A stretch of DNA of 64,000 bases, from contig NOWV01000127.1 of NCBI GenBank assembly GCA_003344405.1, positions 124,001 through 188,000 on the forward strand, given 5' to 3'. The translations under genes and the position numbers were made by a program. The notes under the pieces were generated by a model. The model saw only the letters and a list, made by a program, of their open reading frames with translations, had not been told where the DNA came from and did not search any database. This DNA comes from Trichoplax sp. H2 (Eukaryota). Shown in pieces: positions 32,154-64,000 of the stretch (its first letter is position 1; each line of letters opens with the position of its first letter).

Positions 32154-35100
32154 TCAAAATCTAGTGAATAGTTGGTTTTGTTGATCATGTAGATTCATAA
32201 GCTTTTTCTTCATAATTGCTGGCTTAGATTGGACTCGATTTCTTGATCTCCTAAATGAGTTTCCTAAACGGGCAGCCGGACGAATAAATAATCCTTTAAT
32301 TACGGCTGCATTTGTAAAGGTATATAGGAATGGATTAAGGGCAGAATTAACAGGCAATGCAAAAATACCAACAAATTGTAATGTAACAACATCAACACTG
32401 TCGTTGCTAAAGATAGCATAACTGTTAACTACATAATAAGGTACCCAACTAATTAAATCGGTTAACAGTATGACCGATAGACGCCATGCGAGTGATTTGT
32501 TTTCCTTAGTAGGTGATCTTCCGGCTGCTTTACGGGTATTTTGGGCTGAGATAAACATTCCAATATAAAGTGAAGAAGTAATTATCCAAGCAATAATAGT
32601 CGTGGTTATATAGGATATCATCCAGATGCGATATAGAGGGTGCTCATAATTGCTTGGCATGCACATGCTATTATAGGTATATAATCGCTCAGGACCAGGT
32701 TTATCGGTACTGAATAGTGCTGGCACAATTGCAAATGCAAAGCCTATTAGCCATGCCATACCAGTGATCATTTGAGCTGTATACCTGCTCAATTTTTTTC
32801 CTTTGATCCCATAAACGATAGCGATAAATCTATCGATACTGATAATTATCATTAGAAACACAGATACAATACTTGATGTAGTCACAAAAACACAGGATGC
32901 TACACATAGACCACTTCGTAGCCAATTTTCAGATTGTAGACCGTATTGACCTTGGCCGCTATAAATTAAATTAGCGGTCGCAATTATGAATAAATATATA
33001 GACATGATAAAATCGGATAGTGCTAGATTATTGATTAAGAATATGTGAACTTTCTTTTTAGTCTTTTGGCTAAGAAATTGATTTCGTGCAATAACCATAA
33101 TGTTGCCAAAAAATGCCAGAGAACCAATAACCCATACAAAAGTTTGTAATGAAACATGAGCAAGGAGATGTTGACACGATGATAAAGTATCAGATATCAT
33201 CGATGGCTTACACGTTGTAATTTTAGCAGGTATAAAGCAGCAAAAGTAAGGACGATTTGTTAGCCTATTGAGACATATCGTAGTAAAGAGGATGGTACAT
33301 TTTAAGTTCTGATGTCGATGCAAATGTACTATTTGAAAGTAGGATAGTTGGTTAGCTATTGTTATTTTGACTTACGTTTCTTCCAACTTAGATGGACCAA
33401 AGAAGGATTCTCGAGATATATGTGCTAAAGAATTCATTCGTAAATCTCTAAAAATTGCAGATAGTAAATGTCTTATCATTGGAAGATGCGGTAAAGATTA
33501 CCTCGTGTAATGAAATAAAGGTATGGACATAATAGTGTTAGCAAAAAGTTACTTCCTGAACCAATATAGTATACGAATCGGATATTTACAAAATATCATA
33601 ATACTGTACAATATAAAGGTCACTAATATGGTACAGCTTTTGAATTATTTCAAAGTTAGTCCAGTATATGAACGGCTTTGCATGATGTATGTGCAAGTTA
33701 AGTCTCAATTTTTACAAAACAAAGCGTAGTAGATAAAATTATCAGTGAAAAATATAGAGTATTAAAAGTAATATAATTTGTTCATTGATTGTGTTCAACA
33801 TCAGTGAATATTCAGTATAACAATCTTTTTCACCTAATAATCAAAGCTAAAATTGTTTGCTTGCTCATACCGTGATGAGAATGCTACTACCTGTTCATAA
33901 CAACGTCGTTTTATAGTTATAGCACAAAAAATATTAAGTAAAAGGAGCAATGGTAGTAGTACTAAAATGGTGCCATTCTGTCTTTGTTGAACTTACAATT
34001 TTTGCAGGCTTGATAGTCCTTTAAAGCATCTCTTATCGATCCTGTCAATCTTGTTTCCGCTAGCATCACTTTAATCAATTTACGATTTGATAATTTTTAG
34101 TCAATAATCTTTGTTTTTACTACTACCAACAAAAATTAACCTAAATTTCTAAAATGATTATTAAATACCCACATTTCGATTATATTGAGAAACTGTCCAG
34201 CAAAATCTAGATTTGGGCCACATATTATCTTGATTCGATTATTGGAAATATTGCTGATTCAGAGAGATAAAGGTATTAGATCCATGCTTCTTAATATACT
34301 CTGTCAGTCTTAATATCGTGATACTATCGTTTTCTAGTTATGAAATAAATCTACGAGGGCTACCGGTACTGCCTTCGGATTTCGAGGTTAAAAATCTAAT
34401 CATGAGTATATATTTTGCATTACATACATTACATTACATACATTATACTTACAGCTTTTTCAGCTTTTCAAATCTAACTAATTTTGTAACTTTAAATCCT
34501 GTTAGATTATTGTTTGCAAGACTCCTGCAATAAATATTCGGATATTATAGCAAAAATTGCATATACGCTTATTTCTCTAAAAGCTCCTATCGCGTAAAAT
34601 GAGAGCTTAATCATAAATCACCATATTTACACAAGTCACTTTAATAACTGCAGTAAATAGGCCGCATATGAATTATGTAGAAATTACATATTATAATAGC
34701 CAAGAATGGCTTTGATGTCGCAGTAGACAGTCCGTGATTGCAACAACAGCTAATTAAATATAGCTGAACCAACTCTGTCAAAAAGTCTTATAACTGAGTG
34801 CCACTGTACTTAGTAAATAGTGTATTCTTCCTACGTAACTTACTACCACAGACATTAGACTGTTCTAAACGGTTGTACTCTAGCTTTTGTTTCTTTAGTT
34901 TGATATAATGGTAGGAGTATCACTTTACATTAGGTAAATGAAGTTTGTAAGACTTAAGATCATAATAAGGATCTATTCTGATGTGTGACAATTGTCCACT
35001 ATTCTTTAAATAGATGTATCTGATATTTTTTACATTAATTTGGAATATGAGTAGTTAAATCATCTTACAATTCCATTAACACATTTGCATCATTGACAGA

Positions 35101-38100
35101 GATGTCGACCATATCAAATTCGCTTAAGTTGTTGTGATTTAATGATCTGTTAATTTAGAAATATTAAAATAATCCGCCGATAAATCTTTAGTAAGGTTTT
35201 GAAATACCATCATTATCTATTTAGATCATGGCAATAAATTTCAATTCAAAGTTAGTAGTGGTAGCGAGCTAGAAAGGTAACTCTCACGTAATATTATGTA
35301 ATGTTAAGTTAAGATACTTACATAATTCTGAGACCATCAAAATAAAAGGCTTTTCTTGGAATTTTCAAAATGTTACATTTATTTAATTGGCTGTAAAGGA
35401 TTTAGATATTAAAGTTAGAACTGGTAGCACCATATAAATATGTGATGAATCATTCTATTTTTTATGACCTAAATTTATTTCGATACTTAAGAAAATTAGT
35501 ACTTTAGTTCTTAATATTTAAAACTGAATGTTACGCACAATTTATGACTTAAAAATCTTTGATATGGAATCATAAGTACGCAAAATTTTAATTTTATGGT
35601 CTTTCAGCTATTACTCGTTCATAAAAATTTTCCAGTTTCTACGTATACATGTATAACTTTCAAAATGCTTCAATCATTTTTGGTACTATTTATAACCCCT
35701 ACTTAGCAACACTTTTGAAGACTAGATTTAATTAGCTAAGTGAGTTGAAATAATAATTTGGTTTTCAATTTGCGTTTAAATTGATTTAATGGTGACTGTT
35801 TGTACATGTTAAGCTGTATACTTTTATGTCTAGCCTAACTTGATCCTAATATTTAACTTTTCGATAATAACGACACATTCTGTAAACATTTCTAATTCCT
35901 GTAAGGCGCCTATTATTATCCTCGTATTATGCATCATAATAAACTCCTGACATACCTATAAATGGAATGTCAGTAGTTATTTATGGTTCTGGTCAGATAT
36001 AAACTGGATTTATTTTATTTCTCTGGCTCTATATTTATGACTTGAATCAACTGTAAGTACATGAATGCTGAGTTTTTATTAATTATGTGTTTGTTACACA
36101 TTCACTTTACCGGATTTAAATTTAGATGTTTTTGCATGTTAAGAGTAATTTTGATCTAAAACTATTGTCAATATTATCATGGATGTAAAATTGTGATGTG
36201 AATTCGCTAATGGATTTGCATTAACGACTGTGATGCTTTTAGATGACGATGATAAAGATATAACGTAATTACTATGAATGCAAAGTATAAAGTTTAAGAT
36301 GGATATTGTCTCACTTTTAGTATAAGATGTTAGATTGCTAACTTCTTAATTGGGCTAAATGTGCTAGCACTCATTATCAATTAATACATATGTGCCCTAT
36401 AATAAGTATTATAAAACTAAGTCTATAGAAAAGTATGTTAATTGTATAAGCCTAAGAATTAATTGTTTTGTACCAGAAAGCTTGGCAAATGTATAAAAGA
36501 GGATTCATTTATTTAATATAACAGTGAGGTAATTGCAGTTGCTGAGTAGAGTACGCTATCATCGACAAAGATCTCATTAAGTAATCACCAAAAAGCTTTT
36601 TGTCTGTGACTTACTATTGCCTAAGATTATGCACTAGGTCAGTGAAGTTTGTGGCGCTTAGTAGTAGGGATACTGTACCATAAAAACTAACGGTAGTGAA
36701 ATAGGGAGTTTTTTAAATGTCGCAAACGCGGTTGTGATGATGTTGTAATTTCGATCGTTTGATTTAATTACTACTATAAAGTACTAGTGACATTGAAAAA
36801 GTTCTTGGAAATATTGTCTAGAGATATATCTTGTACCGTTATTTTCTTGTCTAAGTGCTACCTAGAACTGCGTTGTATTTCTTAAAGCACAATAATACTA
36901 TATAAAGAAGTACTTTAAACTTTGAAACATTACAAGAAACTGTATGAAGATTGTACGGTCTAAAATATCAAAAATGATTATCTCGTTTATCTTAGCCAAG
37001 GATCAAATCCGCTTTGTATGAATTTCTAGTGAAGGATGTAGCATAGAGTGTAGTCTCATTTTGTATAATTTTATATGAAATTATAATAGCTTTAGAAATT
37101 GGCTAAATCTTGTTCGGATTATTTTAGTCACTTTCGACAGTTGGGAAATAAAGTACTAGTACGACGGATCTTGTATAGATGTTTAATAAATCTTCAAAAA
37201 TTAAAGACTATATATACGTGTATATATTATGGTTATCATTATTGTGAGATAAGGTAGAGTTTTGATAATTTAGCAAATAAGGCAAATTTAATCGGATTGA
37301 AGTGAGCAAGATGAAAGAGTTACGAATTTCGATTTAAGATAGCTAACCTAATAAGAAGAGATAATTATCAAGGATTGGCGATCCTATCTAGTGCAAGTAG
37401 CGCTATGTTTTGATCATCTGATTACTATCATATTTCTTTATATTCCGATTATATAAGATTCTATATTAGATATTTAGCCGATTCACAAACAGTTTTGTGT
37501 ATCCGCAAATTATACTATGCAATATTGATTTCATCTGATCCCTGCGTTTCTTTAATTAATTTTAAATTTACACACATTGGCGTAGCTGCAGCTACTAAGA
37601 AATCTACATGTAAGATCGTTTACTAATAGCCTATAGTGCAAAGTGCATATCTAGATTACAGTGCTTTATGGACCTTACTTTTTGCATATTCCATGTTAGT
37701 ATTATTACTTAGCCATGTTTTTGTTATACGATATGAACATGTTAATAATACATTCTGTTATTTAATGATATTCTAACTATAATGTATAGCATTTCTTTAT
37801 CTAACATCTTCTATTTCTGTTGTTATTTATGAGTTACAGATTCAATAAATACCAGTCATTCTTGTTTTGAAAGTAACTCTAGTATTCAATAGTTCTGAAC
37901 TCTCAAGTAGTTGATTCTTTTCGAACAAACTACGCTTCAACTTTTCTATATTTCATCTCATTTTACTTGACAGAGTTCATATATGCATAACATAGCCGAA
38001 TAACCGAATAATCTAATTAACTAAGCATTCTAACAAATGCTAAAAGCAAGTTATCGTAAGAATATAGAGATATATCAGAGGAATATGCTATTATTTAATC

Positions 38101-41100
38101 TAATCTACTATTAAACTCTCATTCGATTTATTTAAATATAAAATTAATGATTCTATCAACTATTTTCTGTATTTATGAATAAAGTACATAGCTGCATACT
38201 TATTCTCATACTGTCCAGTTGTTATTATTAGTCAGTGTTATTAACAAATACAGTGTAATAGAAACTAACCTTTTGCGGGATAGAGTAAAATATTCCTTAT
38301 TTTGACTACTTACATGCCAGTTAGGAATGGCCCAACACGGTCGTATAAATCTCTCAGGAAGGAATTTAATATTATTGGATTATCACTCACATCTCTATAC
38401 GCTCAAAAATAAATACAGATACGATCGTTAACATTTTCCTGATGGTATATCTTTTAAGTTATAAATATCTAATGAAAGCTCAGTAAAATAAACTGGTGAT
38501 ATCAAATGGAATATCGTCTAAATTATATATAGCTAATGATAAAAATTAGTAAATAAAACTGGCGATATCTTGTTTTTCAATTAATAACATTACAAATTTT
38601 AGATCCTTAGTAATTATATCATTGTTTTATGTACATACAGTTTTAAGTTTTTCATAGTCGGCATTCCGTTAATAATTCCAGCCCAATTATTCCCTGCTAA
38701 TTTCCTATGAAAGTAATCGACAAGGCAAATCATTAAATTTGTATAAGCGTATCAATACTTATAGTTAGAGTTTACTTTGTAAAGAGATTTATATCATAAA
38801 TAGGCTCTATAGTGGCTTGCTATCTAAGTAAATTAATAACGACCCTAATCTGAAGTCAGATCACCAGCGTATTACTTCGTAAAACGTACAAGTCATTAAT
38901 CAGCTTTAATTTTTCAAGCAAGTCTTTCTGCATATTTATTCCGTTTGTAATCAAATTGGTATAGCTCATATCACTATCGAATAAATACAAAAGCAAATGG
39001 GTCACTTAATTCCAAATGCGTATCAAATAAATCATAACAAGTTATTTATGGAGAGGTTCAATCAGTAACCTACATTTTGGTAACTTGATAGAATAACTGA
39101 TCACAATTAGGATCAAACTTTTTGATATTATTATTTGCTAAAATTCTTAAATTAGCCAATTAAGCATAATAATTAGAGAGTAATATTTCCAGAAATAATT
39201 AGCTTTCAATTTAAATACTTAAGGGTGACCGTAGTTAGTAACAGTATCATCAATAAAGAGAAATTGTTAAATGAATTTATTATTACTTACATAGATTTTA
39301 GTATTGCAGGCAATCCTGAGCAGTTCAAGTATTTGATGTTGTTTCTCGCTAAATTGCTATAATAAAAGTAGACTTGAGAATTCTATAAGAATACGATTTC
39401 ATAAATGATACGGTACAGATGTAAGATTTTTTACTCTAGGTTTGATATTATAACATAAAAAGCTACGAAATAGTAATTATATTGAAAATTTAGACGAAGA
39501 ATTTAAATATTCGCGTTCCCTGTTACAAGTACAAATCTTTAGATTTTATTCGTCCTATTTTCACTTACAGCTTTTCAAGAAAAGTTAATCCCAGATTATC
39601 TTGATCAGACAGTGTTATAGCATTATTACTTAAATCTCTAAAAAAAGAATTTTAGTATGCCTGAGCTTCTAGATCATTCATTTACTATATAGTAACCGAA
39701 ATGGTTATTTATTTAGCTCACAGAATTCTTAAATTTTTGTAACGCGAAAATAATTTGTTTCCCAGCATCGTAATGTAATTGTTGCTTAAATATCTGAAAC
39801 AAAGTCACTTCAATTAATTTAGGAAGCTACACGCATAAAATTTACTACCATTGTGATTACATACGTTTAGAATTGTATATAGACTAAATTTATGAATATT
39901 CCTAATTTGCACTTACAATTGGCTCAGATACGGCAGTTTCACTTTAAAAATTTTACCAACATTTCTAATATTATTGTAATTTAAGTTCCTTGTATACCGA
40001 AATATCATGAAGATATAAAATGATAAGGAATAACTGGGCTTAGCTACAAATGAAGTAATACAATTTGTCTTACAATATCCGTATGTTGCTTAATCCTCCC
40101 AAAAAGGTATTTTGATGATCGGATATATGATTATGATGTAGATATCTGAATCATATATAGACGTTATGAATTAATTTATCAGGTAATCATAAATATTTTA
40201 CTACAGTTAGCAGTATATATTTTCCTGTGTTCTTACAAACTATTTAACATCGTATTTTTAAAAACATTTTCTGGCAATGTTCCAATGTGGTTGTAACCAA
40301 GGTATCTGTTAAACATAAATGTAATTATACTGTACTTTAAAAGATATATTTTTCTTTCATGCCATTCTCTCTGGATGAAAAGATTGTTCAGCACTATAAA
40401 TTTGTTGATAGCTACTCATATACTTTATAAATGAGTACAATTAATTTATTAAATAATAAAATATTCTCAAGATTCATATTAACAATCGGCGCTTAGAAAT
40501 ATAATCATTGAATGTGACATAAATGACGATCATAAGACGTCTTGTGCAGTCAATCGAGTACAATTTTGTAACGGTAGTGAATCTACTGTGATGAATGATA
40601 TCTTACTTAATTTAGACACGTACATGTATCACGATAAGATAGTTATCAATTTGGATATGTGCATGAATTATTTTATGACTTAATTAATATAGCCGATACA
40701 AACCTGTTCCTAATACAGGCTAAATTACACTAAATATAGTATATGAATTGTCAATGGTAAATTCAATATAAATCCTGTTAATTATAAGCTAGTGAAAACA
40801 TAAAGTTAATATATCGTAATATTACAAAGTCATTGGATTAGGCTAGGAATAATTTAATGTATTCACTAAGTCTTATTGGTCGAAATATATCACACATCGT
40901 AAACCGATTTTATGGCTAGAATAGCTATTTTAATGATTGATTTAGAATATTAAATTAGACTCGTATTTTCTAGAATAAAGATATAATTAGAAGATTCCGA
41001 AAGTGCATTTCTTAGTTATTGTTACTTATCTAGGGTAATCTAATTAGTTTAGATTAGGCAAGTTTGGTTAAGTAACACATTTATACTTTTACAAAGTTAC

Positions 41101-47100: not shown

Positions 47101-50100
47101 GAATTTGGGTTATGTAATAGTAACTTATAATAATGATCATTTGATTCTTACAGTTCCCGCAAGTTTGGAGCACATATAGTTTCTGGATAAATAGTTGTTA
47201 GATTATTACGATCTAAGCTCCTAAAAATGAAAACCAGTGGTGTGTTATCATAAGCTTATAATCCAATTAAATGGCTGATATCTTATAGGAAAAATAGCTG
47301 CTAAGAGCCGAGATATTCACGGCTTACAGTATAATTAATTATACATTATTACTAGGTCTAAGCCAGTTTGAATTTCAACACTATTTCTCAGTAAAATATA
47401 GTTGGAGGGGTTCATCATATTAATACAAGGTCTTATCGCAGTATCTTTATACAACGCTTTATGTTTAGACAAATCATACCCCAAAAATCTAATGTAACTT
47501 TCTATGGATTAATAGTGAAATTAATTTGTACATAGATAATCTAAAATGAAGTACATATAATTGATTACCGCTTACACTATTGTAATGTAACATAGTATTG
47601 TGATTGTAGACTGTTAGCCATGTAATCGTGCTCCCTAGCAATTAAGAATTTAAATTTTGATATAGTAACGTTACTTGGTAAATTTTTAATAAGACTTACA
47701 ATACTTCTAGTTTCTTAAAGTCGCAAAATGTATTATTTTCTATGGCATGCAATTTATTTTGAGCAAGGTCACTATATAAAAGAAAAGAAGATATGCGANN
47801 NNNNNNNNNNNNNNNNNNGCAGTAGAATAGTCTTACTAAGAATAATTAACTATGTGTAAAATAAGGTAAAAGGTTGCCATGCCGATTGTAGCTGCGAATG
47901 CTACGAAAAGTATAAAAGCATGCAACTTTAGATTATTCTGTTACTTCGTTGTAGAAGTCTTTAGTAGCAGTATTCGTCTAGAGTAGAGCTGTGTGTAGTT
48001 AATCTTTGTATAAGATTCAATAAAGCCCTTATTTTTCTAAAATTTGGAATTTCGTGATCGGTATATATCATAACTATCTATGAACTAATATTTTCAAAGA
48101 TATATATTATACTAACATTTGCATCATAAATGATCATGCAATGCGTACATATTAAAAATTCCATATTTAAACATATTCGAATAATAATAGTAATCGTGCT
48201 CCCTAGCAATTGAGAATTTAAATTTTGATATAGTAACGTTAATTGGTAAATTTTTAATAAGACTTACAATACTTCTAGTTTCTTAAAGTCGCAAAATGTA
48301 TTATTTTCTATGGCATGCAATTTATTTTGAGCAAGGTCACTATATAAAAGAAAAGAAGATATGCGAACGAAATTGATATTAAGGATTTATGACTACATTA
48401 ACACCATTTATATTATTTGCAATGTAATTATATCCTAGTAGACGATAGGATATGACATTTAGTTTAGTCTTTAGCTTCACATTATTACTTGTATGTATAT
48501 ATCATGTAAATAAACGCGCAAACAATTTAGCATAAATAAAATGTCAGAAATATATACGAGCATTACAGATTGTATGCAATAAATTCTCTCAGTTTGCTTA
48601 CAAATCTATCAAATTTGTTAAGCTGCTAACAGAATCACGTTGTAAATTCTCCAAATTGTTGCCTGCAATGAAACTAAAGCGTAAATAATCAATACTTCGA
48701 TTACTATTATCCAAAATAAGTTATTTGTCGTGATACTGTAATTTACGGTAAAAATAAAGTCAGATCAATAATTAAATTCGAAAGTGTATCGTATCAATTG
48801 AATTTAGTATTAAATTTGTAGTTGTTGACGTATAATGATTACCAAATGGATATTAAATATGAAGATTGCATTAGTAAATATATTTAAATATGATTTTACT
48901 GTAATCCATTATAATAAATGTATCGTGCATTAGATTCGTATTAAATGATATTAGTATAAGAGCTTATACTTTAAAGCAACTGTCATCTAGATTTAGTTAA
49001 ATAAATGATCAACTATCTTTAATTAAAAATTGCAATTAACCAGCATAACTATAACTGTTATGTCAGCAATATACAATGTGTTGAAATACTCGTAGACATT
49101 CCAAATCTTTGTACGGTTTGTTTGAAATCTTACGTACATCTTCCTAAGCCGGTTTGAGCCACTAAAAGCATTGCTTTCAATTGTTTCAATTTCATTATTC
49201 GAAAGGCATCTAATTTGAAATAGTTACCGTACTTCATTATGACTGATATTCAAAGTAGCATTCATTTCTATAGAATAATATCAAAAATTCTTAGCTGGTA
49301 AGTTATATGTAGGCTAGAAAAATTAAACATTTGAACTTCTATTTAAAATGATAATTAAAAATTATCATCGTTACTACATACAAGGTCTCCAGGTTATGAA
49401 GATCGATGAAATAGTTCGATCTTATGATTGATAGCTTGTTTTTGGAAAGCGATCTGCATAAATATAACAAATTTAATCAATGTATGAATACCTGGCTGCC
49501 ATAATACTTAAATAGGCCGATCAAAATTGCAAATTTTTCTTCTATATTCACAAAGTGGAGCATAGATTGATTAAATTCTACTTCAGTAATCTATAGTTTT
49601 TCAATCTCAATAAGACACTATAGATCTTTATATGGTATATTACCTGCATACGATACGCTCCACTAATTTTCTAAACATGTTTGTTTGTTAAGATCGTAAT
49701 GCAATCGATTTATACTTTCTTTTTCAACTGTTATTATTACTACTACTTACATTACTTACATTATTCACATGATGGCTTACACTGTAATATGTCTTTATTA
49801 ATAACTATCAACCGCGAATTATAGCAAACAATTACGGATCTATTTCCTGCTAGAGTATCTATGCGAATCCAGATGATAGTCATGAAATAGGGTTATTTAG
49901 ATTAATTGAACTCTCTATCATAAAAGTGAAATACAAACTATAGTGATATATCGTAGGCAATTTATACATTATTCTGCTTTATCAGACATACAACAAGTTC
50001 AATCCAGCAATTGGCTTAAAGGCTCCATCATCGATAGATAAGATTTCATTAGATTCCATAGTTCTGTCAATAAAATGAAAAAGATAGATAAGGATAAATT

Positions 50101-53100
50101 TGTATAATATAAATTCTTAGTCGTCAGATTGAATTATTATTTGTAGAACCAAAATGCAATTGCAGAAGTATCCAATTATTTACTGTAAATAAAATGGTTG
50201 AATGATAGTTTCAGTTCTATCAAACGAAAGTTCTAGCCACATCAACTAGAGATTAGTCTGTAATGTTTTCATAATTAATTAATGATTTAATGATATTCAA
50301 TCATGAGATTAGCAGTAATTTATTTGGCTTTATATCTTCTAAAATCTTATCTGAAATTGGCAAGTGTGGTAGATATAATCTTTATCATTAAATTAATAAA
50401 TCGAATGTATTATTAAAAGACATTAATCATCTACGGGTATTGTAAAAAACATGACAAAAATGAAATGACATTATAATATAAATCATTAGGAAATTTTTCT
50501 TACACTTCCGTTAGTTTGGAGAGGCATGCAAAGCTACCATTTGAAACTTTAGATAAATTGTTATCATTGAGGTCTCTAGAGAAAACAGTTCAAAATTACA
50601 GTTTTTTCCAGCTTCAGAGATAAACTTGAAATTACGTGCCAGAATACTATTTAAAGTACGTATGTACAAATCAATTAACGGTTTTACGTCGCCAATGTTA
50701 TACATGAAGTAAAATTGCTGACATATAAACATATACTTTTAAATGATTACTATAAATCTGCTATGCAGTATTATAACATATATATACATCACAAGAAGTA
50801 AATTGATTAAAAGAAACATTAAGAAAAGGTGAAATTTTATGAGGTATAATAAGAACTAATATCTAGAAACAGTTCATGTTTCATTTAATATGCATGCGAT
50901 AGTACCATTATCTTGAAGTATGAAAGACAATTAAGAATTTTTTATGATTGAGTTAATTAAAATTATTACGCGATTCAATGCGTTAGGTTGATGACCATCA
51001 ACGATAATACAATATTTTACCAATAAGTTTCAGAAAAAAATAATAAGTTTTGAGCTTTACTAAACTTACAGTAACCACAGATTGGGCATTGAACAGAATG
51101 ACCCGCTTTCGATAGAATTGATATCATTATTGTGTAAACTCCTAATAATTAGAAATGCTACGTCAAATTCACGTACTTTACATCATATAAAGAAATACTA
51201 AATGTGCTATTTAATTAACATCGAATTTATAGCTAAAGTAGTACAGTACAGAATGGAATAATACATATCATAACTTAATTTAAGTAAGAAGGTATCCATA
51301 GTTTTATCTACAAATAACCGGAATGAAGCAAAGCATTTTCGTTATCGTAGTTTGTATATTATAATAAAGATTAAGTCTGATAGATACTGCTCGATGAAAG
51401 GTAAGAAAAAGCCTAAGTTAATAGATACATATGCCTTAACTATCGATAATAAGGTTAAGGTAACAGAGAATTTTGCTTTATCAGATACTTGAGTATTTGA
51501 CGATATACATAATAAGCACTATTATTTCATTTTATCTAATAGTTTACAAGTTTTTCAAGTTAGAAAGACAAGCAAAGGTGTAACGTTCAATTTTCTGAAT
51601 TTTGTTCTGGAAAAGCCGTCTATAGTTAAGTCAAAAAAAGAACTTAGTGAGTATTAATCGTTTGATTTTTATGTATATCGCGTACGGATGAGGCAGTTCT
51701 TATGAAGATAGATACGTACAGATTCGAAACACTTAATAACGTACAAAACGAATTCGGTTCGATGTAAGTAATTGAATTTTGTTCTATGTCTCTAAAATAT
51801 CGAAATAGTTGAGGTTAGCACTGATCTGCCCAAATTGAAATTTTTACGGCTAATTCCAATATGGTTATTGGTTGATTTTGTGAATTGCGAGGAACCATGT
51901 AATAGTTCACGTAGCCGCTAGCAAGTCATTATGATATTTTTTGAAGGACATGCTTTACATGTTCATTAATGGCATCCGAAGCTCAGTGAGTATTTACCGA
52001 ATTGATTATATAATTTATTTTTAAAATTCAAATTCTTACAGAAGTTGCACTGATGATAAGCCAGTGAAGGCCCATAGACCAATTGTTTTCAGCTGATTTC
52101 TTGCAAGATCACTAATTAAAGATGATGTTTAGCGAAAAATTTAGACCGTATAGTAAATTAAGAATTTAAATCATTTTCATTTCCATGGAAAATTAGCTCT
52201 ATATAATGAGAGAGTGTAATATTGTATTCTAATTTTATGATATATTTAGTACTGTCTACGTAGTTATTGTGTTCAACATGTGATAGATATTCCGTTAGAG
52301 GCTTAAGTATTTGAGATGTTAATACGGAAGTGTGTAGCAAGTAAGGTGCTAAGATTGTTGACGCGGAAAAGTTTATAAGTGAATAGTTTAGCACGGTAAA
52401 ATAGTTCTTTCTCGTTAGAAGTCCTCAGTTGATTGATTACGTTATATTTTGGTAAACGAGATTTTGTTCAATAAATCTTAATTTTCTAAAGTCTTGAAGA
52501 TTCTTTATCTATCAAGCTCACACTCTGCTAATTAAAAAGTAGCGGTGGCTAATTATAGTTATAAAAGTAAATTTGATAAACTACATTGGTAGATTGTGCG
52601 ATAAGCTTTTGATACTATAAATATAATACTACACTATTACTGTCAATATAAAAGAATTCTGTAAAAGAATTCTATAAAATTTCAATCTTACAGTGTACGA
52701 AGTTTGGTCAAGTTACGGAATGAATTTGGCTCAATTTCTTCGATAGCATTAGCTTCAAGAAATCTAAAATATTAAATAATGGTATTGTTATTTACTAAGT
52801 ACTTGTATAAGCTCATTCAAGTTGGAATAGATTTTTTCGTTGCTAATGGTCAGAATATTTCGGTATATCAATGATCGCAGCTATTCAGGATGAGTATGAA
52901 AATATCACTGCGCTTTTTCTTCTATATTAACTTATTTTATACTTACAAGCCAATTAATGATATCAAACAATCCAAACTATCATTTTTAATCACTTTCAAA
53001 CGATTGCCTTTCAAATTTCTAAATAGTAAATTTCATATGTGCCAAAAAGAAAAATATTATGTCTAATCTTAGATAGTTTCATAATTAACTTACAATGTCT

Positions 53101-56100
53101 GTATTGACGCGATCGTAATTAAAGAAATTTATTAATTGTTCTTTAGCTACGATGTATGATAACTCTGATGATTAACTTATTTTTACATATTAATACGCAC
53201 AGACGAGTAAGTGACTGCAAACCACATAAGGAATTGGGTTCAATAACCGAAATGGCATTATGCCTAATTCGCCTGAGATGTTGATGAAAGAATGATAGTT
53301 CTAGATTAGTTGGTGAGAACACTGCCATTGCAATGTATTACATTAAAAATGAAATAAATATAATAGCTACTGATTGTGCCACATTGAATATTTGATTATA
53401 ATTGTAAATCAGAAATAAGATTTTGAAATTAAAAAAAATACTACTTATACTGTACATTACAATGCGGTCTTAAAATGATTTACTGGAAATGAAATTCTAC
53501 TGGATGATAGCAGCCAAAATTTAGAGCGAGCTAACGCACATAGATATATTATCAGATAGAATATCATCTATCGCAGACTTACAAATACTTCAAATTCGAT
53601 AAACAACCGAAATTGTCTTTAGACAGGGTTTTAATTCGATTATTATCCAAAAATCTAGTCAAAATTCAGATAAGATTTAAAAGTGGGATCAAAATGCTAA
53701 TATATGCTAATACAGCTAATGCAATTTCCCTCCGATGATACTGTTAACAGAGTATGTCCGTGTATTGCACTTACAAGTACTGCAGATTTTGCAATGTACA
53801 TAATGCTTTTGATTGGATGTCGATTAGAGCGTTCGAATCAAGTTTCCTACAAAAATTGGATATACAGATATTAACCATTACGTTTACTAGCTAACACTAC
53901 AATTGTAATGATCATGTATAGTCAAGGAAGCAAATAAGGCAGCTAGGACTTGGATTTTTAATGTAGTTATTGGAAAATGATTTATGACTTTTAGTGAAAT
54001 TTCACTATGGGGCACAGAGGATTATGTAGCAACCGCTTGAAAAATAATTTCAAAGGGTTCTTTCTTAACTTTTGCAGTGTAATCTTAAATTATTACTATC
54101 AATATTATAAGAATACATAGATAGCAAAACGAATCATTTCACCGAGAATGCATTACTAGGACAATATAAGCCTTATACTGTATAAAAGGAGTGTAAGACT
54201 TCAAATTTGAGCTTAGGTGCGGGGTTATTCTGATTTGAAAGGCATAACTTACAGTGATTTTAGGTTGGTTAAGCAATTAAATGATCCATTTGTAATGAAT
54301 TGCAGTCGATTAGCTTCTAAAGACCTTAAAAATGTATAAAGCAGTATGCTGGATATATCTCGACATTCTTTAAGTAATACGAGTATACTCGTAGACAGAA
54401 TAAATTTTGAAAACTTACAAATTGGCTAGCCGTGGCAAGCCACAGAATGCATCTGGTTCAATGGTCTCAATCAAGCTGCTGGTAATATTCCTATATTAAG
54501 TAATCATAGATGTTGGGTATCATTATCTAGAGATACTATTAACAACTGCTTTAAAGGTTCTTATTGCTTTTCACATGCATAGCGGACAGAAAATTTAGCA
54601 GTAGTAAGAGTTATTGTAAAATTAACTATTAACTGCTAGTCCATTCTTGATTGCAAGGACGACTTACGAGCGTCGTTCACTCTTGTAATGATTACAAATT
54701 ACAAAGTTGTAGCATACACAGTAGATTATTTAATGTTTACTCGGTGCAATTAACAATTTTTTATGTAGAATTAAGAAGTACAAATTAGCAAATGTAAACA
54801 TCTGTGCTTACTATACATTACATAATATTTATACAAAATTATAGTATTAATCTTTGCAGCATACAGCAACTGTAGGTAATTAGTCACCGTTGCTAAGTAA
54901 TTTGTAACGATAACAAGTTTTAAACATGAAAACGTAAAAAGCAAACTGTAACAATGGCAAGTTTATGGCTTCCAAATTCTCATTAGATGAATGGAATTAA
55001 CCCACTACATTATATGTCATAACATCACAATTACCGTCAGGAAAAATAGAATTAGATTATATTAATGTATAGTGATATTAGATATCTTGCGTTAAGATAC
55101 TATAATATTTGATATCTTGTGTTAAAATATTGCGATAATTCATATTTTGCGTTAAGGTTTAGTGATAATAGATAGTTCGTCTTAAGATATTGTCATATTG
55201 GATATTGTAGATATTTTAATACAATCTATTTGTAAGTTTTAAAAAGTATATCAGCATATTATAAACAGGCAAAAGGAGAAGTAAACAAATTAATTCTCAT
55301 CTACGTGTCTTGTATTACTGTGTTCTTGTAAACTTTGCTAAGGTAGACGATTAGGAATTATCTACAAATTATAATAGAGTTATTTGAGTTAAAGTGCCTA
55401 ATGTTAAACTCATACTGATCGTGTAGAAAATGGGCTATACATTATTGGCAGAACAGCAGTGAAAGTCTACATGGTAGAAGAAAATTTTTGTATTGCAATT
55501 GAGGTCGTGACTTCACGGTAGTCTGAAGGTAATGTCAGGTAATTTTTGATAGCCTTGTGTTGTGGAGTGACTTTTACTTACTATTTGCTTATCTTATTAT
55601 CCTGACGTTGGTCAAGTTAGATTGGAAGACTTGGAGATTAAATAAAGGTAACTTATTTAGTAATTCTAGATTGTATGTCAGGGAATTACGACAAGACAGA
55701 TTACCCGATATAATCTCCCTCTCCCAAGGTAGTGGGAAATACTAAGAGTGTAATATGGCGCATGGCACTAGTATTATCTAAGTAAGCGCTCATTACTAAT
55801 GCTTACATAAACTGACTATAAATTAAGTGATTTTTCAATAAAGTTAAGGTTTAGTTTTATTCAGAAAGACCAGTAGTGCGACTGTTCCTCCTGCCGACTG
55901 GAGATTGTCAGTATCTAGAGTGGCACTGCAGGCTCGCGGTTGTAGTTTTCTGCAATAGCTTAACTTTCCTCACGTTACAAATTTAGACTTACAGTGCATT
56001 GGTATTTATTTGTATTTAGTTGTAATAGCTGTCTATTCGTACAAATATTCATTGGTTTAAACTAGTATAGGATAATCAGCGAGGAATTTTCCTATCTATA

Positions 56101-57276
56101 AATTCGTCATTTGAAGTATACATTATTTATTGCTCGAAAGCTTTTGATCCAGCTGGATAGTCAATAGTGAGTTCTGGAAATAATATTGCTCTATGTGGTA
56201 AGTTTATCAACTCAAATATAATAAAATCTCATCTTAGGAAGGCATACCATGTACCATCAGTATGTGATTACTAAATTATCCTCTCATGAATTTTTAGGCC
56301 TTACAGCCGTAGGAATGCAATATTCTTGCTAGATTTTACTGCAGATTAGTGTAGTACAGTCATCTATTTGACCAGCTAAAGTCTAGTTAACTTGCTAGAA
56401 GGCGATCGGTGATATATATGGCATTGATTACTTCCAATAAAGTCATAAAATGCTACCGTATCTTTAAGTACGTAATAATGTTTTATAGAAGGCAGAATAA
56501 GCAAAATCCTCTAAAAATAAGATGAAAACAGTATAATAAGGTGAATACTTACAGGATGACTAGTTCTGGATAGTTTATAAAGCTTCTTGCTTTAATCTTT
56601 CTAATGCTGGTGTTGTTGATTATCCTATAAAATTAAAATTAAGCATCAGTTATCGTCTATAAATCAGTAGTGCAGTCATTTATCATAACAATGTATTGAG
56701 ACTATGATGAGATATAATTGCGACAAGAAATACTAAAGTGAATATAAATTCTTCGTTTAATAGTACCCCTGGCTTTAATTACAGATATTTTGGTAGGTAT
56801 TCTACTGTGACTATTACTAGATAATTTAAGTTTGAGTGCTAAATGATATCGTTTACTGCCTAGTACGTTTCGATTATTGTGCAATAACCGTGCGTTATCA
56901 ATAGAAGCGATCTTAAACACAAGTATATAAATAACAAACATTGAAATTTTCTATTGTTACAATGTCTACTAACAGTGATTGCACATTTTCAATGCCAGTG
57001 AAGTTAATGTTGGGCAATTCGATTAAGTCACTGCTAGAACAGTTTATAAACGAAATGTTGCACTTGCAGATACTTGGACAACCTTTGCTGATTTCTGTTA
57101 GAGGTAGTAGCAATATGTCACTTTATATCATGAAGAAATTAATAAGGGAAGGCTGGCTCTTTGATATTAACGTTAACTGCACCTGCAATTCCACCGCTAT
57201 AAGCTGTTAGAAGCCAAATTATTGCTATAAAATGATTGTAAAGGATCCAATGCTCTAAATTGCGCTTGCTTTTCAT
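32154..57276 (-). CDS. Giant leucine-rich-repeat GPCR (LGR): signal exon 57276-57183, LRRNT exon 57094-56974, about 50 single-LRR exons (mostly 72 bp, phase 2-2) from 56624 to 33376, and a hinge+7TM terminal exon 33264-32154
   Basis: LRRNT CPSICKC...NCS. Repeated 63-84 bp GT-AG exons encoding xLxxNxIxxIxxxxFxxLxxLxxL (e.g. 54419-54490, 52692-52763, 46678-46749, 41105-41176, 33997-34068). Hinge RPYFCC...CKP...DTLSSCQHLL. 7TM motifs GNIMV, NLALSDFIM, ISIDRF, SWVP, NSALNPFLY. Confidence 0.9.
47622..47798. other. Gap-adjacent duplicate of 48190-48366, including a second copy of one LRR exon (47700-47771 = 48268-48339); probably the other haplotype
   Basis: Near-identical at offset 568, and ends exactly at the N run 47799-47818. 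Confidence 0.85.
47819..48070 (-). repeat. Inverted copy of the dispersed repeat at 61009-61261, inside an LGR intron
   Basis: Reverse complement matches 61009-61261 with only scattered substitutions. Confidence 0.88.
55074..55206. repeat. Degenerate 30-bp tandem repeat (about 4-5 units) in an LGR intron
   Basis: gatatt.gatatcttg.gttaa repeated at 30-nt spacing. Confidence 0.75.
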
Positions 57277-59272
57277 GGCTACCAAGTAATAAACTTGTAG
57301 TTAATTTTTAAAATATCAATTAAAACCACAACAGTAATCGCTATGGTTTATATTAAGAGTTGAAAAGTTTAGGCTAACTGTTTGACCTTAGTTTTTACAA
57401 GAAAGCTAAGAAAATTTTTATTATGATGCTGAAGTTGACAAATAAAATTTTAAGCAATTCTATAGTGATGCACCCCTTATTTGATTATAAGGATAGCTAT
57501 ATTTGATATAGTCAGGTTACTAAGAATAGATATTATCTTGAGGCTTATATTAGATGATTGATAACTACTTGTCATTCACAGGAGTAACTCCACTGTCTAC
57601 TCTCTTCTAATGTGGGTGATCAACTAACTTACTAGCTACTTAGTCAATATTGTTGTTTGCATTAGGGAGCAATAGCTAAAATTAATGTCTAATTCAGTGA
57701 ATGAATCCAAAGTTAGTCGTACTAACTATCACTCTTGAACTATTGAGGGAGAGTATATAAACGTAATATATCGTATAATAAAGTTAATTCTTAAACTTAG
57801 TTTTTAGCGTAAAATACGAGGCATCTAAGTCTTTGTGTAGTCTGCTAGTAGAGCAAAAGTGTTCCTGATAGTGCAGATATCGTTTCTTGATACGTGGTTC
57901 AAGGAATTGACTCATTGATCGCACATTACATTATCGTGTTGCAAGCTGTTTTGTGACAGGTAACTAATCAAATTGACAAGAAAAGAAGAACTTGAGCAAC
58001 TTACCGTTAGCCTTGTAGCTCTTACTTTGCTAAGTCTAATATTTCTGGTACTAGCAATTTTTACCGCCGATTTATCTTGCATGCAATACAAAAGTGTTGA
58101 TAGTACAGGCTACGGTAAATTGTATACCCATACAATGAAATCTAAGTAAGAATAGCGTTGATAAAGTAAATTGTAGAAAAAGCTGTTTGATTTGCATTAT
58201 AATGCATAAAAAAGTATATTATTTCTATTCTTATTTATAAGTAATTTCGTTATTACTAAGGGAACTTTACAATACCACTAGCAACTCGATTCTCAACAGT
58301 ATCAAAGACAATTACTGTCTACCTACCGTATGTACATAAACTACCTAACAGTTAAGTAAGAATGATTATTAATCGGCGAAACCTGTTACGTGCCAATTAA
58401 AAATACGGAAGTGAAACCTGTTACGGGTCCGTCAATGGACCAACACCGATATACAATTTAACACTGTAACGATTAATTATAATTGAATATTAAGTTTTAT
58501 CGTTTGTCCTAAGTATAACATTGTCAATGTCTATAAAACTATTCAATCTATTATTCAAGTTCCAGTGAACTAATCAATTATTGAGACGTTGTTCTACAGA
58601 AAGAAATCGTAACAATTAGTTATCTTCTTGACCAACATTAATTTACTATTATCGCGGACATCTAGATCTCAATCGAGATCTTGAAGTCCAGGCCACAACA
58701 CCCATTACCTTGCACATATGGTGACAATGTAAAATACATCGATCTATTGTAGAAGGAAACCTTATTGTTCTATTTTTTTCTTCCCGGAAGTTATAATTAT
58801 TTAAGCTTGTGCATAGAATTTGATAGAAAATATCCTTAATAACTTTGATTGTTAAAGTAAACAACAGACAACATAGGGTCAAATTTGACGATATTATTCA
58901 ACGGAAGTACAATATGGTAATTCATAAAAGTATCAGTTAGAAAATAAAGTTATCGAACGAGCAGGCGCTTTAACAGACTGTTTATTCTTAATATTGTGAT
59001 GTCAATTTATTGATTGATTTTATGATTAGCAAGAGATTCGTTTTACAGTTACACCATTGTCTAGTACAGTTATTGTAAAGATATGATTGACGTTATTATG
59101 GTGTATTATTTGTACCAATATTCCATGTATTTACAGCCATTCAAGTAGGTGCTAGTATCTTACTTACTGTTCAGCAATTAAGGAATGGCCTATGAGATTA
59201 CCCATTGGATGATTAAAATGGAGATAAAAACAACTCCTAATGGAATTTGTAATAGTCCAAATTCTAGATTTC

Positions 59273-63740: not shown

Positions 63741-64000
63741 TTATTTGCTTACGTCTTTTTGTTGTCTTGTCCTATTTGTGTAGGTTACACGAGTCGCTGG
63801 ACGAATAAATAATCCTTTGATTACGGCCGTACTTGTAAAGGTATACAAGTATGGATTAAGAGCAGAATTTATAGGTAATGCAAATATACCAATAAATTGT
63901 AGTGTGATAACGTCAACACCATCGCTAGATGCGAAACCAGTAAAATTTACTATATAATAAGGTACCAAACTAATTAAATCGGTTATTAATATGATAAATA
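63741..64000 (-). CDS. 3' end (TM6-TM7 and tail) of a tandem paralogue of the LRR-GPCR; continues beyond the window
   Basis: ITDLISLVPYYIVNF...VDVITLQFIGIFALPINSALNPYLYTFTSTAVIKGLFIRPA is highly similar to the TM6-7 region at ~32270-32470. Confidence 0.9.
   Translation of the reverse strand, partial: FIILITDLISLVPYYIVNFTGFASSDGVDVITLQFIGIFALPINSALNPYLYTFTSTAVIKGLFIRPATRVTYTNRTRQQKDVSK

What the first reader, a model, noticed from the sequence alone, without database searches (positions are those of the whole stretch)
32154..57276. Giant LRR-GPCR: about 50 one-repeat exons, RXFP/GRL101-type hinge, no LDLa module
Seen: about 50 in-frame symmetric phase-2 exons, each encoding one LRR, between an LRRNT exon and a single hinge+7TM exon, giving a protein of roughly 1,600 aa. 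Known: type A LGRs have about 9 LRRs, type B about 17, and type C (RXFP1/2, GRL101) about 10 or fewer plus N-terminal LDLa module(s). The short CC-x-C-x-P-x-D-xx-SSC hinge here is type C-like, yet no LDLa exon precedes the LRRs. Inference: an LGR architecture outside the A/B/C scheme, with a very large solenoid ectodomain suited to broad ligand or microbe sensing, or adhesion.
Basis: partly seen in the sequence, partly recalled or inferred. Interest (0 to 1): 0.75.

Follow-up and report, generated by a model that had tools for sequence, protein, structure and literature searches.

The report
Placozoan GPCR with ~50 leucine-rich repeats
This is a real, expressed Trichoplax gene for a cell-surface G-protein-coupled receptor with about fifty leucine-rich repeats, each on its own small exon; it belongs to a placozoan-specific receptor group already described in 2022.

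Summary
On the minus strand, 57276 to 32154, lies one open reading frame of 54 coding exons and 1670 aa. It encodes a signal peptide, an LRRNT-like cap, 51 single-LRR exons that all start in phase 2, and one exon carrying a short 4-Cys hinge, a rhodopsin-type 7TM and the tail. RNA contigs show 12 of 12 displayed GT-AG joints at model introns, including a 5'UTR exon with an in-frame stop before the ATG. There is no LDLa module.

It is not new. Forty-one exon peptides are identical to GenBank RDD39647.1, the 1353-aa 'GRL101-like protein [Trichoplax sp. H2]', an N-truncated model. Hauser et al. 2022 (PMC9545775) already described 41 T. adhaerens-specific LGRs outside types A/B/C. These have their own Cys-rich hinge and unusually many LRRs; their example has 34.

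What this work adds is a fuller model: the true N-terminus and 50-51 LRRs. One exon is an identical duplicate next to an assembly gap. The function is inferred: a very large LRR solenoid that binds a ligand and drives a 7TM. The ligand is unknown.

The parts
58005..58087 (-). 5'UTR exon (its 5' end is not determined)
   Evidence: RNA contig X13 record 24 and the joint 57278|58005, 726-nt intron, CT..AC. An in-frame stop lies 9 codons before the ATG.
57183..57278 (-). Coding exon 1: ATG at 57276, signal-peptide-like N-terminus
   Evidence: RNA joints on both sides; translation.
56974..57094 (-). Exon 2: LRRNT-like 4-Cys cap
   Evidence: RNA joints 57094|57183 and 56623|56973. Pfam LRRNT 18.7 bits, below the cut-off.
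56553..56624 (-). Exon 3, LRR 1
   Evidence: RNA joints on both sides, including the 2062-nt intron.
54419..54490 (-). Exon 4, LRR 2
   Evidence: RNA joints on both sides.
54253..54324 (-). Exon 5, LRR 3
   Evidence: RNA joints on both sides.
53775..53846 (-). Exon 6, LRR 4
   Evidence: RNA joints on both sides.
53583..53654 (-). Exon 7, LRR 5
   Evidence: RNA joints on both sides.
53201..53272 (-). Exon 8, LRR 6
   Evidence: RNA joints on both sides; present in the public model P0097.
52947..53018 (-). Exon 9, LRR 7
   Evidence: RNA joint on the 5' side; in P0097.
52692..52763 (-). Exon 10, LRR 8
   Evidence: In P0097; splice sites.
52040..52111 (-). Exon 11, LRR 9
   Evidence: In P0097.
51720..51791 (-). 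Exon 12, LRR 10
   Evidence: In P0097.
51548..51619 (-). Exon 13, LRR 11 (predicted only)
   Evidence: AG/GT borders, phase 2, PSSM 21.7. Absent from P0097.
51070..51141 (-). Exon 14, LRR 12 (predicted only)
   Evidence: PSSM 20.8. Absent from P0097.
50504..50575 (-). Exon 15, LRR 13
   Evidence: In P0097.
49992..50063 (-). Exon 16, LRR 14
   Evidence: In P0097.
49382..49453 (-). Exon 17, LRR 15 (predicted only)
   Evidence: PSSM 13.9. Absent from P0097.
49138..49209 (-). Exon 18, LRR 16 (predicted only)
   Evidence: PSSM 18.3. Absent from P0097.
48602..48673 (-). Exon 19, LRR 17
   Evidence: In P0097.
48268..48339 (-). Exon 20, LRR 18
   Evidence: The peptide occurs once in P0097.
47700..47771 (-). 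Exon 21, identical copy of exon 20; possibly an assembly artefact
   Evidence: Lies in the 177-nt, 98.9% duplication that abuts the N gap 47799-47818.
47152..47220 (-). Exon 22, LRR
   Evidence: In P0097 and in the H1 fragment P0098.
46967..47038 (-). Exon 23, LRR
   Evidence: In P0097 and P0098.
46679..46750 (-). Exon 24, LRR
   Evidence: In P0097.
46350..46421 (-). Exon 25, LRR
   Evidence: In P0097.
46116..46187 (-). Exon 26, LRR
   Evidence: In P0097. Collinearity with paralogue P0001 starts here.
45729..45800 (-). Exon 27, LRR
   Evidence: RNA joint 45631|45729; in P0097.
45560..45631 (-). Exon 28, LRR
   Evidence: RNA joint; in P0097.
44755..44826 (-). Exon 29, LRR
   Evidence: RNA joint 44600|44755; in P0097.
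44529..44600 (-). Exon 30, LRR
   Evidence: RNA joints on both sides; in P0097.
44274..44351 (-). Exon 31, irregular 26-aa repeat
   Evidence: RNA joint; in P0097.
43923..43985 (-). Exon 32, 21-aa repeat
   Evidence: In P0097.
43701..43772 (-). Exon 33, LRR
   Evidence: In P0097.
43524..43607 (-). Exon 34, 28-aa repeat
   Evidence: In P0097. A piece of an RNA contig covers exactly 43524-43607 (record 19).
42000..42071 (-). Exon 35, LRR
   Evidence: In P0097.
41745..41810 (-). Exon 36, LRR
   Evidence: In P0097.
41105..41176 (-). Exon 37, LRR (predicted; matched by a paralogue)
   Evidence: PSSM 20.3. Absent from P0097. Paralogue P0001 has a repeat at the same position (read by eye). It lies in the same depth bin as a high-copy repeat (table 2).
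40237..40305 (-). Exon 38, LRR
   Evidence: In P0097.
40074..40145 (-). Exon 39, LRR
   Evidence: In P0097.
39917..39988 (-). Exon 40, LRR
   Evidence: In P0097. RNA joint 39793->39919 with 2 letters between (table 5c).
39722..39793 (-). Exon 41, LRR
   Evidence: In P0097.
39569..39637 (-). Exon 42, LRR
   Evidence: In P0097.
39291..39356 (-). Exon 43, LRR
   Evidence: In P0097.
39074..39145 (-). Exon 44, LRR
   Evidence: In P0097.
38890..38973 (-). Exon 45, 28-aa repeat
   Evidence: In P0097. Pieces of RNA contigs cover 38889-38973 inside longer records (records 18 and 25).
38639..38704 (-). Exon 46, LRR
   Evidence: Sequence read (donor GTATGT); in P0097.
38314..38394 (-). Exon 47, 27-aa repeat
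   Evidence: In P0097. A piece of an RNA contig covers exactly 38314-38394 (record 17).
35322..35390 (-). Exon 48, LRR (follows a 2923-nt intron)
   Evidence: In P0097. The same junction is in paralogue P0001.
35069..35146 (-). Exon 49, LRR
   Evidence: In P0097.
34453..34524 (-). Exon 50, LRR
   Evidence: In P0097.
34173..34253 (-). Exon 51, LRR
   Evidence: In P0097.
33997..34068 (-). Exon 52, LRR
   Evidence: In P0097.
33376..33447 (-). Exon 53, last LRR
   Evidence: In P0097.
32154..33264 (-). Exon 54: 4-Cys hinge, 7TM (DRF, SWxP, NPxxY) and C-terminal tail, stop codon included
   Evidence: Pfam 7tm_1 E = 6.7e-31. RXFP1 is the best PDB hit. 98% identical to TRIADDRAFT_14559.

Best explanation
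This is one expressed gene of a Trichoplax (sp. H2-type) genome. It encodes a member of the placozoan-specific clade of leucine-rich-repeat GPCRs (LGRs).

The protein has these parts, in order:
- a signal peptide;
- an LRRNT-like cap;
- an uninterrupted array of 50-51 'typical' 24-residue LRRs, one per phase-2 exon;
- a short hinge with four conserved cysteines;
- a rhodopsin-class 7TM domain that keeps DRF, a TM6 tryptophan-proline (SWVP) and NPxxY;
- a cytoplasmic tail.

The gene structure, transcription, domain content and family placement are shown. The mode of action is inferred by analogy with solved LGRs (RXFP1, TSHR, LGR4). In that reading the long LRR solenoid captures an extracellular macromolecular ligand. 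The hinge relays this to the 7TM, which signals through G proteins and/or arrestins. The ligand is unknown.
For: One gene:
- A single 1670-aa ORF runs over 54 exons.
- RNA-Seq contigs (X13, X14) give 12 of 12 displayed CT..AC joints exactly at model introns. They run from the 5'UTR exon through exon 9, and also cover exons 27-28 and 29-31. None of these joints is in the DNA-like run X1.
- The public, evidence-based model P0097 (RDD39647.1) carries 41 exon peptides letter for letter, from exon 8 to the stop. It overlaps the RNA chain at exons 8-9.

No LDLa:
- An in-frame stop lies in the 5'UTR exon, and no 6-Cys or DxSDE motif occurs in any frame of the window.
- Pfam finds only LRR families and 7tm_1 in P0097.

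Family placement:
- The best relatives are Trichoplax LRR+7tm_1 proteins without LDLa.
- In a 27-row 7TM tree, the 13 placozoan rows form a 100/100 clade apart from bilaterian GRL101/RXFP-like rows.
- The hinge residues are invariant in 7 paralogues.
- Hauser et al. 2022 (PMC9545775) describe exactly this kind.

Signalling competence:
- The DRF, SWVP and NPFLY motifs are visible.
- RXFP1, TSHR, LHCGR and FSHR are the top PDB hits.

Solenoid:
- An AlphaFold2 model of paralogue P0002 shows strands recurring about every 24 residues from residue 7 to 702, followed by a helical bundle.
- Foldseek ranks full-length LGR4 best by E-value. TLR8 ectodomains give the best superposition of the LRR part.
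Against: - No single RNA molecule spanning the whole gene was seen.
- Nine of the 53 introns (around exons 13, 14, 17, 18, 37 and between 20 and 21) have no support outside splice sites and LRR consensus. The public model skips those exons.
- One exon may be an assembly duplicate.
- The LRRNT match is below Pfam's cut-off.
- No ligand, G-protein coupling or cell type has been tested. TM6 has S where LGRs usually have C before the W, read from the alignment.
- The structure model is of a 48%-identical paralogue. Its mean pLDDT is only 69, and the hinge is below 50.
- The tree has no type A or type B rows.
Confidence: 0.8

Rival explanations
1. The receptor works as a germline-encoded pattern-recognition or environmental sensor. 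In this reading the TLR-sized or larger LRR solenoid binds microbial, algal-food or other non-self molecules and reports through a GPCR instead of a TIR domain. The 41-member clade would be a recognition repertoire.
For: [quoted passage not shown] H2, while other recognition families are expanded and fused to GPCRs (CTLD-GPCRs). Alpha-arrestins are also expanded (Kamm et al. 2019, PMC6321704, passages).
- The paralogue's LRR domain superposes best on TLR8 ectodomains, TMt about 0.59.
- The family is large and clustered: a tandem paralogue 3' end lies at 63732-63995, and three paralogues share one H1 scaffold.
- Two arrestin-domain genes lie in the same window.
Against: - There is no expression, induction or binding data.
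- The LRR array is old and conserved, not fast-changing. The orthologue is 98% identical between H1 and H2. Exon order is collinear with a 65%-identical paralogue. No recent intragenic duplications exist apart from the one beside the gap.
- Solved LGRs bind endogenous protein hormones.
Confidence: 0.25
2. The locus is really two or more genes, an LRR-only secreted or membrane protein upstream and a shorter LGR downstream, and the long ORF comes only from the fact that all exons are phase-2 symmetric.
For: - Any subset of symmetric phase-2 exons stays in frame, so an open frame alone proves little.
- The H1 annotation splits the locus into TRIADDRAFT_60110 (226 aa, LRR only) and TRIADDRAFT_14559 (293 aa, 7TM only).
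- No full-length transcript was seen.
Against: - RNA joints link the 5'UTR, signal peptide and LRRNT to exons 3-9. The H2 model links exon 8 to the stop, so the two chains overlap.
- No second signal peptide or LRRNT, and no stop codon, lies within the array.
- Paralogues P0002 and P0003 also join about 30 or more LRRs to a 7TM.
- Both H1 models are fragments without proper ends.
Confidence: 0.05
3. The protein acts mainly as an adhesion or cell-cell recognition molecule, like LRR adhesion proteins, with the 7TM serving as anchor or mechanosensor rather than as a hormone-type receptor.
For: - The ectodomain of about 1,270 residues is very large, with 27 N-x-S/T sites counted in the first 1,300 residues. 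This is far more than is needed for a hormone-binding site of the size used by LGRs with 9-17 repeats (PMC9545775).
- Placozoans have few cell types but 46 LGRs.
Against: - The G-protein-coupling motifs DRF and NPxxY and the LGR hinge are conserved.
- No adhesion-GPCR features such as a GAIN/GPS domain were found by Pfam.
- There is no localisation data.
Confidence: 0.12

Closest known systems
Placozoan-specific LGRs of Trichoplax adhaerens (41 of 46 LGRs; example Tadh-LGR-15 with 34 LRRs), Hauser, Koch & Grimmelikhuijzen 2022, PMC9545775
   Same: - LRR-only ectodomain with unusually many repeats.
- Its own cysteine-rich hinge.
- Neither type A, B nor C.
- Placozoan origin. The closest relatives of this gene are Trichoplax LRR+7tm_1 proteins.
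   Different: - This gene has 50-51 repeats against the published example of 34.
- Whether its H1 orthologue (TRIADDRAFT_14559) is one of the 41 could not be checked, because Supplementary Table S2 was not readable.
GenBank RDD39647.1, 'G-protein coupled receptor GRL101-like protein [Trichoplax sp. H2]', 1353 aa (P0097)
   Same: It is the same locus. Forty-one of the 54 exon peptides are identical, from exon 8 to the stop codon.
   Different: - The public model starts at an intronic ATG and lacks exons 1-7 (signal peptide, LRRNT, LRR 1-5), which RNA joints support.
- It omits exons 13, 14, 17, 18 and 37.
- It has the duplicated exon only once.
Type C LGRs: RXFP1/RXFP2 and molluscan GRL101
   Same: - RXFP1 is the best solved-structure match to the hinge+7TM exon (E = 5.8e-35), and the alignment runs through the short hinge.
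- Database names call the placozoan proteins 'GRL101-like'.
   Different: - No LDLa module.
- 50-51 LRRs instead of about 7-10.
- Four hinge cysteines in a different pattern.
- A separate clade from bilaterian GRL101/RXFP-like rows in the 7TM tree.
Type B LGRs (LGR4-6) and Toll-like receptor ectodomains
   Same: - Full-length LGR4 is the best Foldseek hit for the paralogue model, E = 3.4e-25.
- TLR8 ectodomains superpose best on its LRR solenoid.
- Both have long arrays of typical LRRs with an LRRNT-type cap.
   Different: - LGR4-6 have 16-18 LRRs and a type B hinge (PMC9545775).
- TLRs have a single TM helix and a TIR domain. This protein has a 7TM and no TIR.

Membership tests
LGR (leucine-rich-repeat-containing class A GPCR) | Rhodopsin-family 7TM most similar to glycoprotein-hormone and relaxin receptors | tested here: met
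   Pfam 7tm_1 E = 6.7e-31. The top PDB hits are RXFP1, TSHR, LHCGR and FSHR, at E from 5.8e-35 to 7.5e-26. The best non-LGR GPCR hit is at 3e-11.
LGR (leucine-rich-repeat-containing class A GPCR) | N-terminal extracellular LRR domain on the same polypeptide as the 7TM | tested here: met
   One ORF. RNA joints plus the public model. LRR_8 in 21 stretches in P0097.
LGR (leucine-rich-repeat-containing class A GPCR) | Cysteine-containing hinge between the LRRs and TM1 | tested here: met
   Four Cys lie between the last LRR and TM1. They are invariant in 7 paralogues.
Type C LGR (RXFP1/2, GRL101) | One or more N-terminal LDLa modules | tested here: not met
   The transcript's 5' exon has an in-frame stop, and no LDLa-like motif is found in six frames of the window. 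There is no PF00057 hit in P0097 or in the four Trichoplax sp. H2 relatives.
Type C LGR (RXFP1/2, GRL101) | About 7-10 LRRs | tested here: not met
   51 LRR exons. The repeat number for type C is taken from PMC9545775.
Type C LGR (RXFP1/2, GRL101) | Type C hinge consensus | tested here: inconclusive
   The hinge aligns with the RXFP1 hinge (C, P, CKP, D, SS, LLA shared) but has two extra cysteines. Hauser et al. call the placozoan hinge different from type C.
Type C LGR (RXFP1/2, GRL101) | Groups with type C receptors in a 7TM phylogeny | tested here: not met
   The placozoan rows form a 100/100 clade apart from 14 bilaterian GRL101/RXFP-like rows. No type A or B rows were available, so the wider position rests on the published tree (PMC9545775, Figure 6 legend).
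Placozoan-specific LGR clade (Hauser et al. 2022) | Unusually high LRR number, own Cys-rich hinge, placozoan lineage, outside types A/B/C | tested here: met
   definition.
Placozoan-specific LGR clade (Hauser et al. 2022) | Orthologue listed among the 41 accessions (Supplementary Table S2) | not testable with these tools
Toll-like receptor | Single TM helix and a cytoplasmic TIR domain | tested here: not met
   It has a 7TM domain, and Pfam finds no TIR.

The most novel reading that the evidence does not exclude
With 50-51 contiguous LRRs this would be the largest LRR ectodomain among the GPCRs examined here (56 relatives). Every repeat is a separate symmetric phase-2 cassette exon, so the gene could produce receptor isoforms of different solenoid length by exon skipping. 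The exon pairs 13/14 and 17/18, and exon 37, are missing from the evidence-based public model and may be such cassettes. The 41-gene family could then be a GPCR-coupled, TLR-like recognition repertoire in an animal that lacks true TLRs.
Probability: 0.12. Interest if true: 0.6.

Novelty: already known. Interest (0 to 1): 0.3.

Why it matters
The kind of receptor is already in print and the gene is already in GenBank. The value here is therefore corrective and not a discovery.

- The public model is N-terminally truncated. It lacks a signal peptide and LRRNT, and probably several repeats.
- The true protein is about 1,650-1,670 aa with 50-51 LRRs, well above the published example of 34.
- If other family members are truncated in the same way, repeat numbers for the whole placozoan LGR clade are underestimated.
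- The one-repeat-per-exon, all-phase-2 layout gives a simple route to changes in repeat number between paralogues.
- The biological question of why a nerveless animal with few cell types keeps about 40 giant LRR-GPCRs remains open and can be tested by experiment.

Tried and rejected
Tools that gave nothing:
- Whole genome of the window: none is held.
- Earlier notes of this scan: nothing by place or by sequence.

Exon candidates rejected:
- My first candidates at 36850-36785 and 36686-36615 lie inside the 2.9-kb intron. P0097 and P0001 both join exon 47 directly to exon 48.
- My first acceptor for the LRRNT exon (57120) was replaced by 57094 on RNA evidence.

Searches with negative or limited results:
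- Upstream LRR or LDLa exons between 57.3 and 63.8 kb: none.
- Intragenic nucleotide-level duplications: only the one at the gap, so there is no sign of recent exon amplification.
- Type A/B rows for the tree: the two LGR4 fragments found (P0100, P0105) did not give 250 aligned 7TM residues and were dropped. No type A sequence was in hand.
- Names for other long LRR-only LGR-like proteins (P0022, P0044, P0024, P0035, P0018): no informative name; the only one in these clusters is 'hypothetical protein' on a 29-aa member.

RNA runs:
- Run X11 gave only unspliced pieces on this stretch.
- Bins without RNA cover, for example 50206-51539, say nothing about exons 13-14.

Step not run:
- A statistical test of the two-exon alternation in the N-terminal repeats.
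- The alternation is therefore only an impression by eye: Cys at repeat position 17 in one exon and position 18 in the next.

Full report
**What is in the sequence**

The feature is on the minus strand. A 405-codon open frame at 32154-33371 matches Pfam 7tm_1 (E = 6.7e-31). An LRRNT-like Cys pattern lies near 57000.

A scan for AG..GT intervals found a long series of 72-nt exons. In each, one base completes a codon, 23 codons follow, and two bases are left over. Each carries the LRR consensus.

Chaining them gives 54 coding exons, a 5013-nt CDS and 1670 aa without an internal stop.
- Exon 1: ATG at 57276, with a hydrophobic signal-peptide-like start.
- Exon 2 (57094-56974): CPxxCxC...C cap. 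Pfam LRRNT scores 18.7 bits, below the 25.8 cut-off.
- Exons 3-53: 51 LRR exons, all phase 2 at both ends.
- Exon 54 (33264-32154): hinge, 7TM and tail.

Of the 51 repeats, 37 have 24 residues and the rest have 21-28. The consensus is LxLxxNx[IL]xx[IL]xxxxFxxLxxLxx, and the split codon always gives L, I, F or V. The PSSM scan from 63800 down to 33300 found candidates only between 56624 and 33376, so the series is bounded and is not a chance pattern.

**One gene or several**

All exons are symmetric, so an open frame alone is weak evidence. Two independent lines connect the parts.

First, contigs of two RNA-Seq runs (X13, X14) laid on 38200-58199 show 12 displayed joints with CT..AC ends, which are GT..AG on the gene strand. 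All 12 coincide with introns of the model:
- the 5'UTR exon (..58087-58005) to exon 1;
- exons 1 through 9 in unbroken order, including the 2062-nt intron;
- exons 27-28;
- exons 29-30-31.

None of these joints is present in the DNA-like run X1. Three other displayed joints are repeat-to-repeat joins seen in X1 only. Twenty-two joints were not displayed.

Second, a public protein in the same 90% cluster as the H1 fragment is RDD39647.1, 'GRL101-like protein [Trichoplax sp. H2]', 1353 aa (P0097). It contains 41 of my 54 exon peptides letter for letter, from exon 8 to the stop. That annotation was made with MAKER, using transcript evidence and repeat masking (Kamm et al. 2018, PMC6057997, passages).

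The two chains overlap at exons 8-9. By my count, 44 of the 53 introns have outside support. The other nine flank exons 13, 14, 17, 18 and 37 or lie between exons 20 and 21. Exon 37 has a counterpart at the same position in paralogue P0001, read by eye.

**No LDLa**

The RNA-supported 5' exon carries an in-frame stop nine codons before the ATG. No 6-Cys LDLa-like pattern or DxSDE motif exists in any of the six frames of the whole window. Pfam finds only LRR families and 7tm_1 in P0097. About 6.4 kb upstream of the ATG lies the 3' end of another LGR paralogue on the same strand (63995-63732, 65% identical to the P0001 tail). This limits the room for further upstream exons.

**Which organism, which family**

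The 7TM exon is 98% identical to TRIADDRAFT_14559 of T. adhaerens (293-aa fragment). It is identical to the H2 model, so I infer that the window is a Trichoplax sp. H2-type genome.

In H1 the locus is split into fragments: TRIADDRAFT_60110 (226 aa, LRRs only) and TRIADDRAFT_14559.

Paralogues in H2 have 1020, 1062 and 1208 aa (P0001-P0003). They have LRR and 7tm_1 domains, no LDLa, and no signal peptides, so they look N-truncated too. P0001 (65% identity in the 7TM) is collinear with this gene exon by exon from exon 26 to the end, apart from two exons it lacks. The long array therefore predates that duplication. No nucleotide-level intragenic duplication exists except the one at the gap.

In a maximum-likelihood tree of 27 hinge+7TM stretches, the 13 placozoan rows form a 100/100 clade. 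This gene pairs with TRIADDRAFT_14559, apart from 14 bilaterian GRL101/RXFP-like rows. Type A and B rows were not available, so the wider placement rests on the published tree.

**Comparison with what is known**

Hauser, Koch and Grimmelikhuijzen 2022 (PMC9545775; abstract, section 7 part 1 and passages read) re-annotated T. adhaerens and found 46 LGRs:
- two of type A;
- none of type B;
- three of type C, which carry LDLa;
- 41 placozoan-specific ones.

[quoted passage not shown] Their example is Tadh-LGR-15, with 34 repeats and its own Cys-rich hinge.

Three further searches found no other paper on these receptors:
- 'placozoa' + 'GRL101';
- 'placozoan' + 'LGRs' + 'Trichoplax adhaerens', from 2019;
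- Trichoplax, GPCR, LRR, expansion and innate immunity.

[quoted passage not shown] They labelled that group GRL101-type and called it phylogenetically not well supported.

**The hinge**

The hinge is short. HMMER aligns it with the RXFP1 hinge, sharing C, P, CKP, D, SS and LLA. RXFP1 is also the best PDB hit: 124 bits against 109 for TSHR, 95 for LHCGR and 94 for FSHR.

However, the hinge has four cysteines (CC..C..SSC). These, with R, Y, P, K, P, LSS and LL.H, are invariant in seven paralogues. The pattern is family-specific, as the 2022 review says.

**How it probably works**

Shown: the gene structure, transcription, domain order and family.

Inferred: the rest. The 7TM keeps DRF at the end of TM3, SWVP in TM6 and NPFLY in TM7. 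It is closest to receptors that signal through G proteins.

An AlphaFold2 model of paralogue P0002 (7-sequence alignment, mean pLDDT 69.3, pTM 0.51) shows a strand about every 24 residues from residue 7 to 702, followed by a helical bundle. The hinge is poorly predicted. Foldseek finds full-length LGR4 best by E-value (3.4e-25). TLR8 ectodomains superpose best on the LRR part (TMt about 0.59).

A solenoid of about 29 repeats is already TLR-sized, so 50-51 repeats would be nearly twice that. The most likely mechanism is that of an LGR: ligand capture on the LRR surface, relay through the hinge, and 7TM activation.

The ligand class is open. Possibilities are an endogenous protein hormone, microbial or food-derived molecules (placozoans lack true TLRs, PMC6321704), or a cell-surface partner.

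**What is added and what is left open**

The public model starts at an intronic ATG and lacks exons 1-7, which RNA supports. It also omits exons 13/14, 17/18 and 37. Whether these are annotation losses or cassette exons cannot be told from what was displayed.

Exons 20 and 21 are identical. They sit in a 177-nt, 98.9% duplication that ends exactly at the N gap 47799-47818, next to a high-copy repeat. One copy may be an assembly artefact.

By a common regex, the model has 44 LRR matches against 33 for P0097 and at most 26 for the other 55 relatives examined. Some unnamed records of about 1,200-1,300 aa with LRR+7tm_1 only also exist outside named placozoans.

**Verdict**

What is new is an improved full-length model.

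Noticed in passing
47622-47798 and 48190-48366, with the N gap at 47799-47818: A 177-nt, 98.9% direct duplication containing a whole LRR exon ends exactly at a scaffold gap. The gap is flanked by a very high-copy repeat: the X1 depth is about 100,000 in bin 47538-48204 against about 90 elsewhere. This is probably an uncollapsed contig overlap or an allelic variant.
   Followed up: partly
bins 40868-41534, 47538-48204, 52207-52873, 57543-58199: The introns and the 5' flank hold high-copy repeats. Depth is 40 to 1000 times the baseline in the DNA-like run, with many loose ends and repeat-to-repeat joints. Exon 37, which the public model omits, lies in one of these bins.
   Followed up: no
63732-63995 (-): The C-terminal end of another LGR 7TM exon, 65% identical to P0001 residues 917-1003. 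It is a tandem paralogue upstream on the same strand, cut by the window end.
   Followed up: partly
13370-14731 (+) and 18987-20657 (+): Two sets of exons with Arrestin_N and Arrestin_C domains, probably two alpha-arrestin-like genes in tandem. Kamm et al. 2019 report an alpha-arrestin expansion in this species.
   Followed up: no
29208-29735 (+): Another rhodopsin-family GPCR exon (7tm_1, E = 5.4e-13) on the opposite strand, convergent with the 3' end of the LGR gene.
   Followed up: no
5662-5901 (-): An exon with a KH_2 domain (E = 5e-13). It belongs to an unrelated gene.
   Followed up: no
exons 4-20, 54490-48268 (-): By eye, the N-terminal repeats alternate between two types. One has Cys at repeat position 17 ('..F-C-x-L') and the next has Cys at position 18 ('..F-x-C-L'), which suggests a 48-residue super-repeat and possibly paired cysteines between neighbouring turns. 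Paralogue P0002 shows the same pattern. No statistical test was run.
   Followed up: no
51707-52025: RNA run X13 holds a 319-nt contig that is collinear with the genome across the intron between exons 11 and 12. This is unspliced pre-mRNA, intron retention or DNA carry-over.
   Followed up: no
P0001 (paralogue, Trichoplax sp. H2): The public model of this paralogue seems to contain read-through or mis-framed stretches where this gene has exons 31-34. It also starts inside the LRR array without a signal peptide. Other family models may need the same repair.
   Followed up: no
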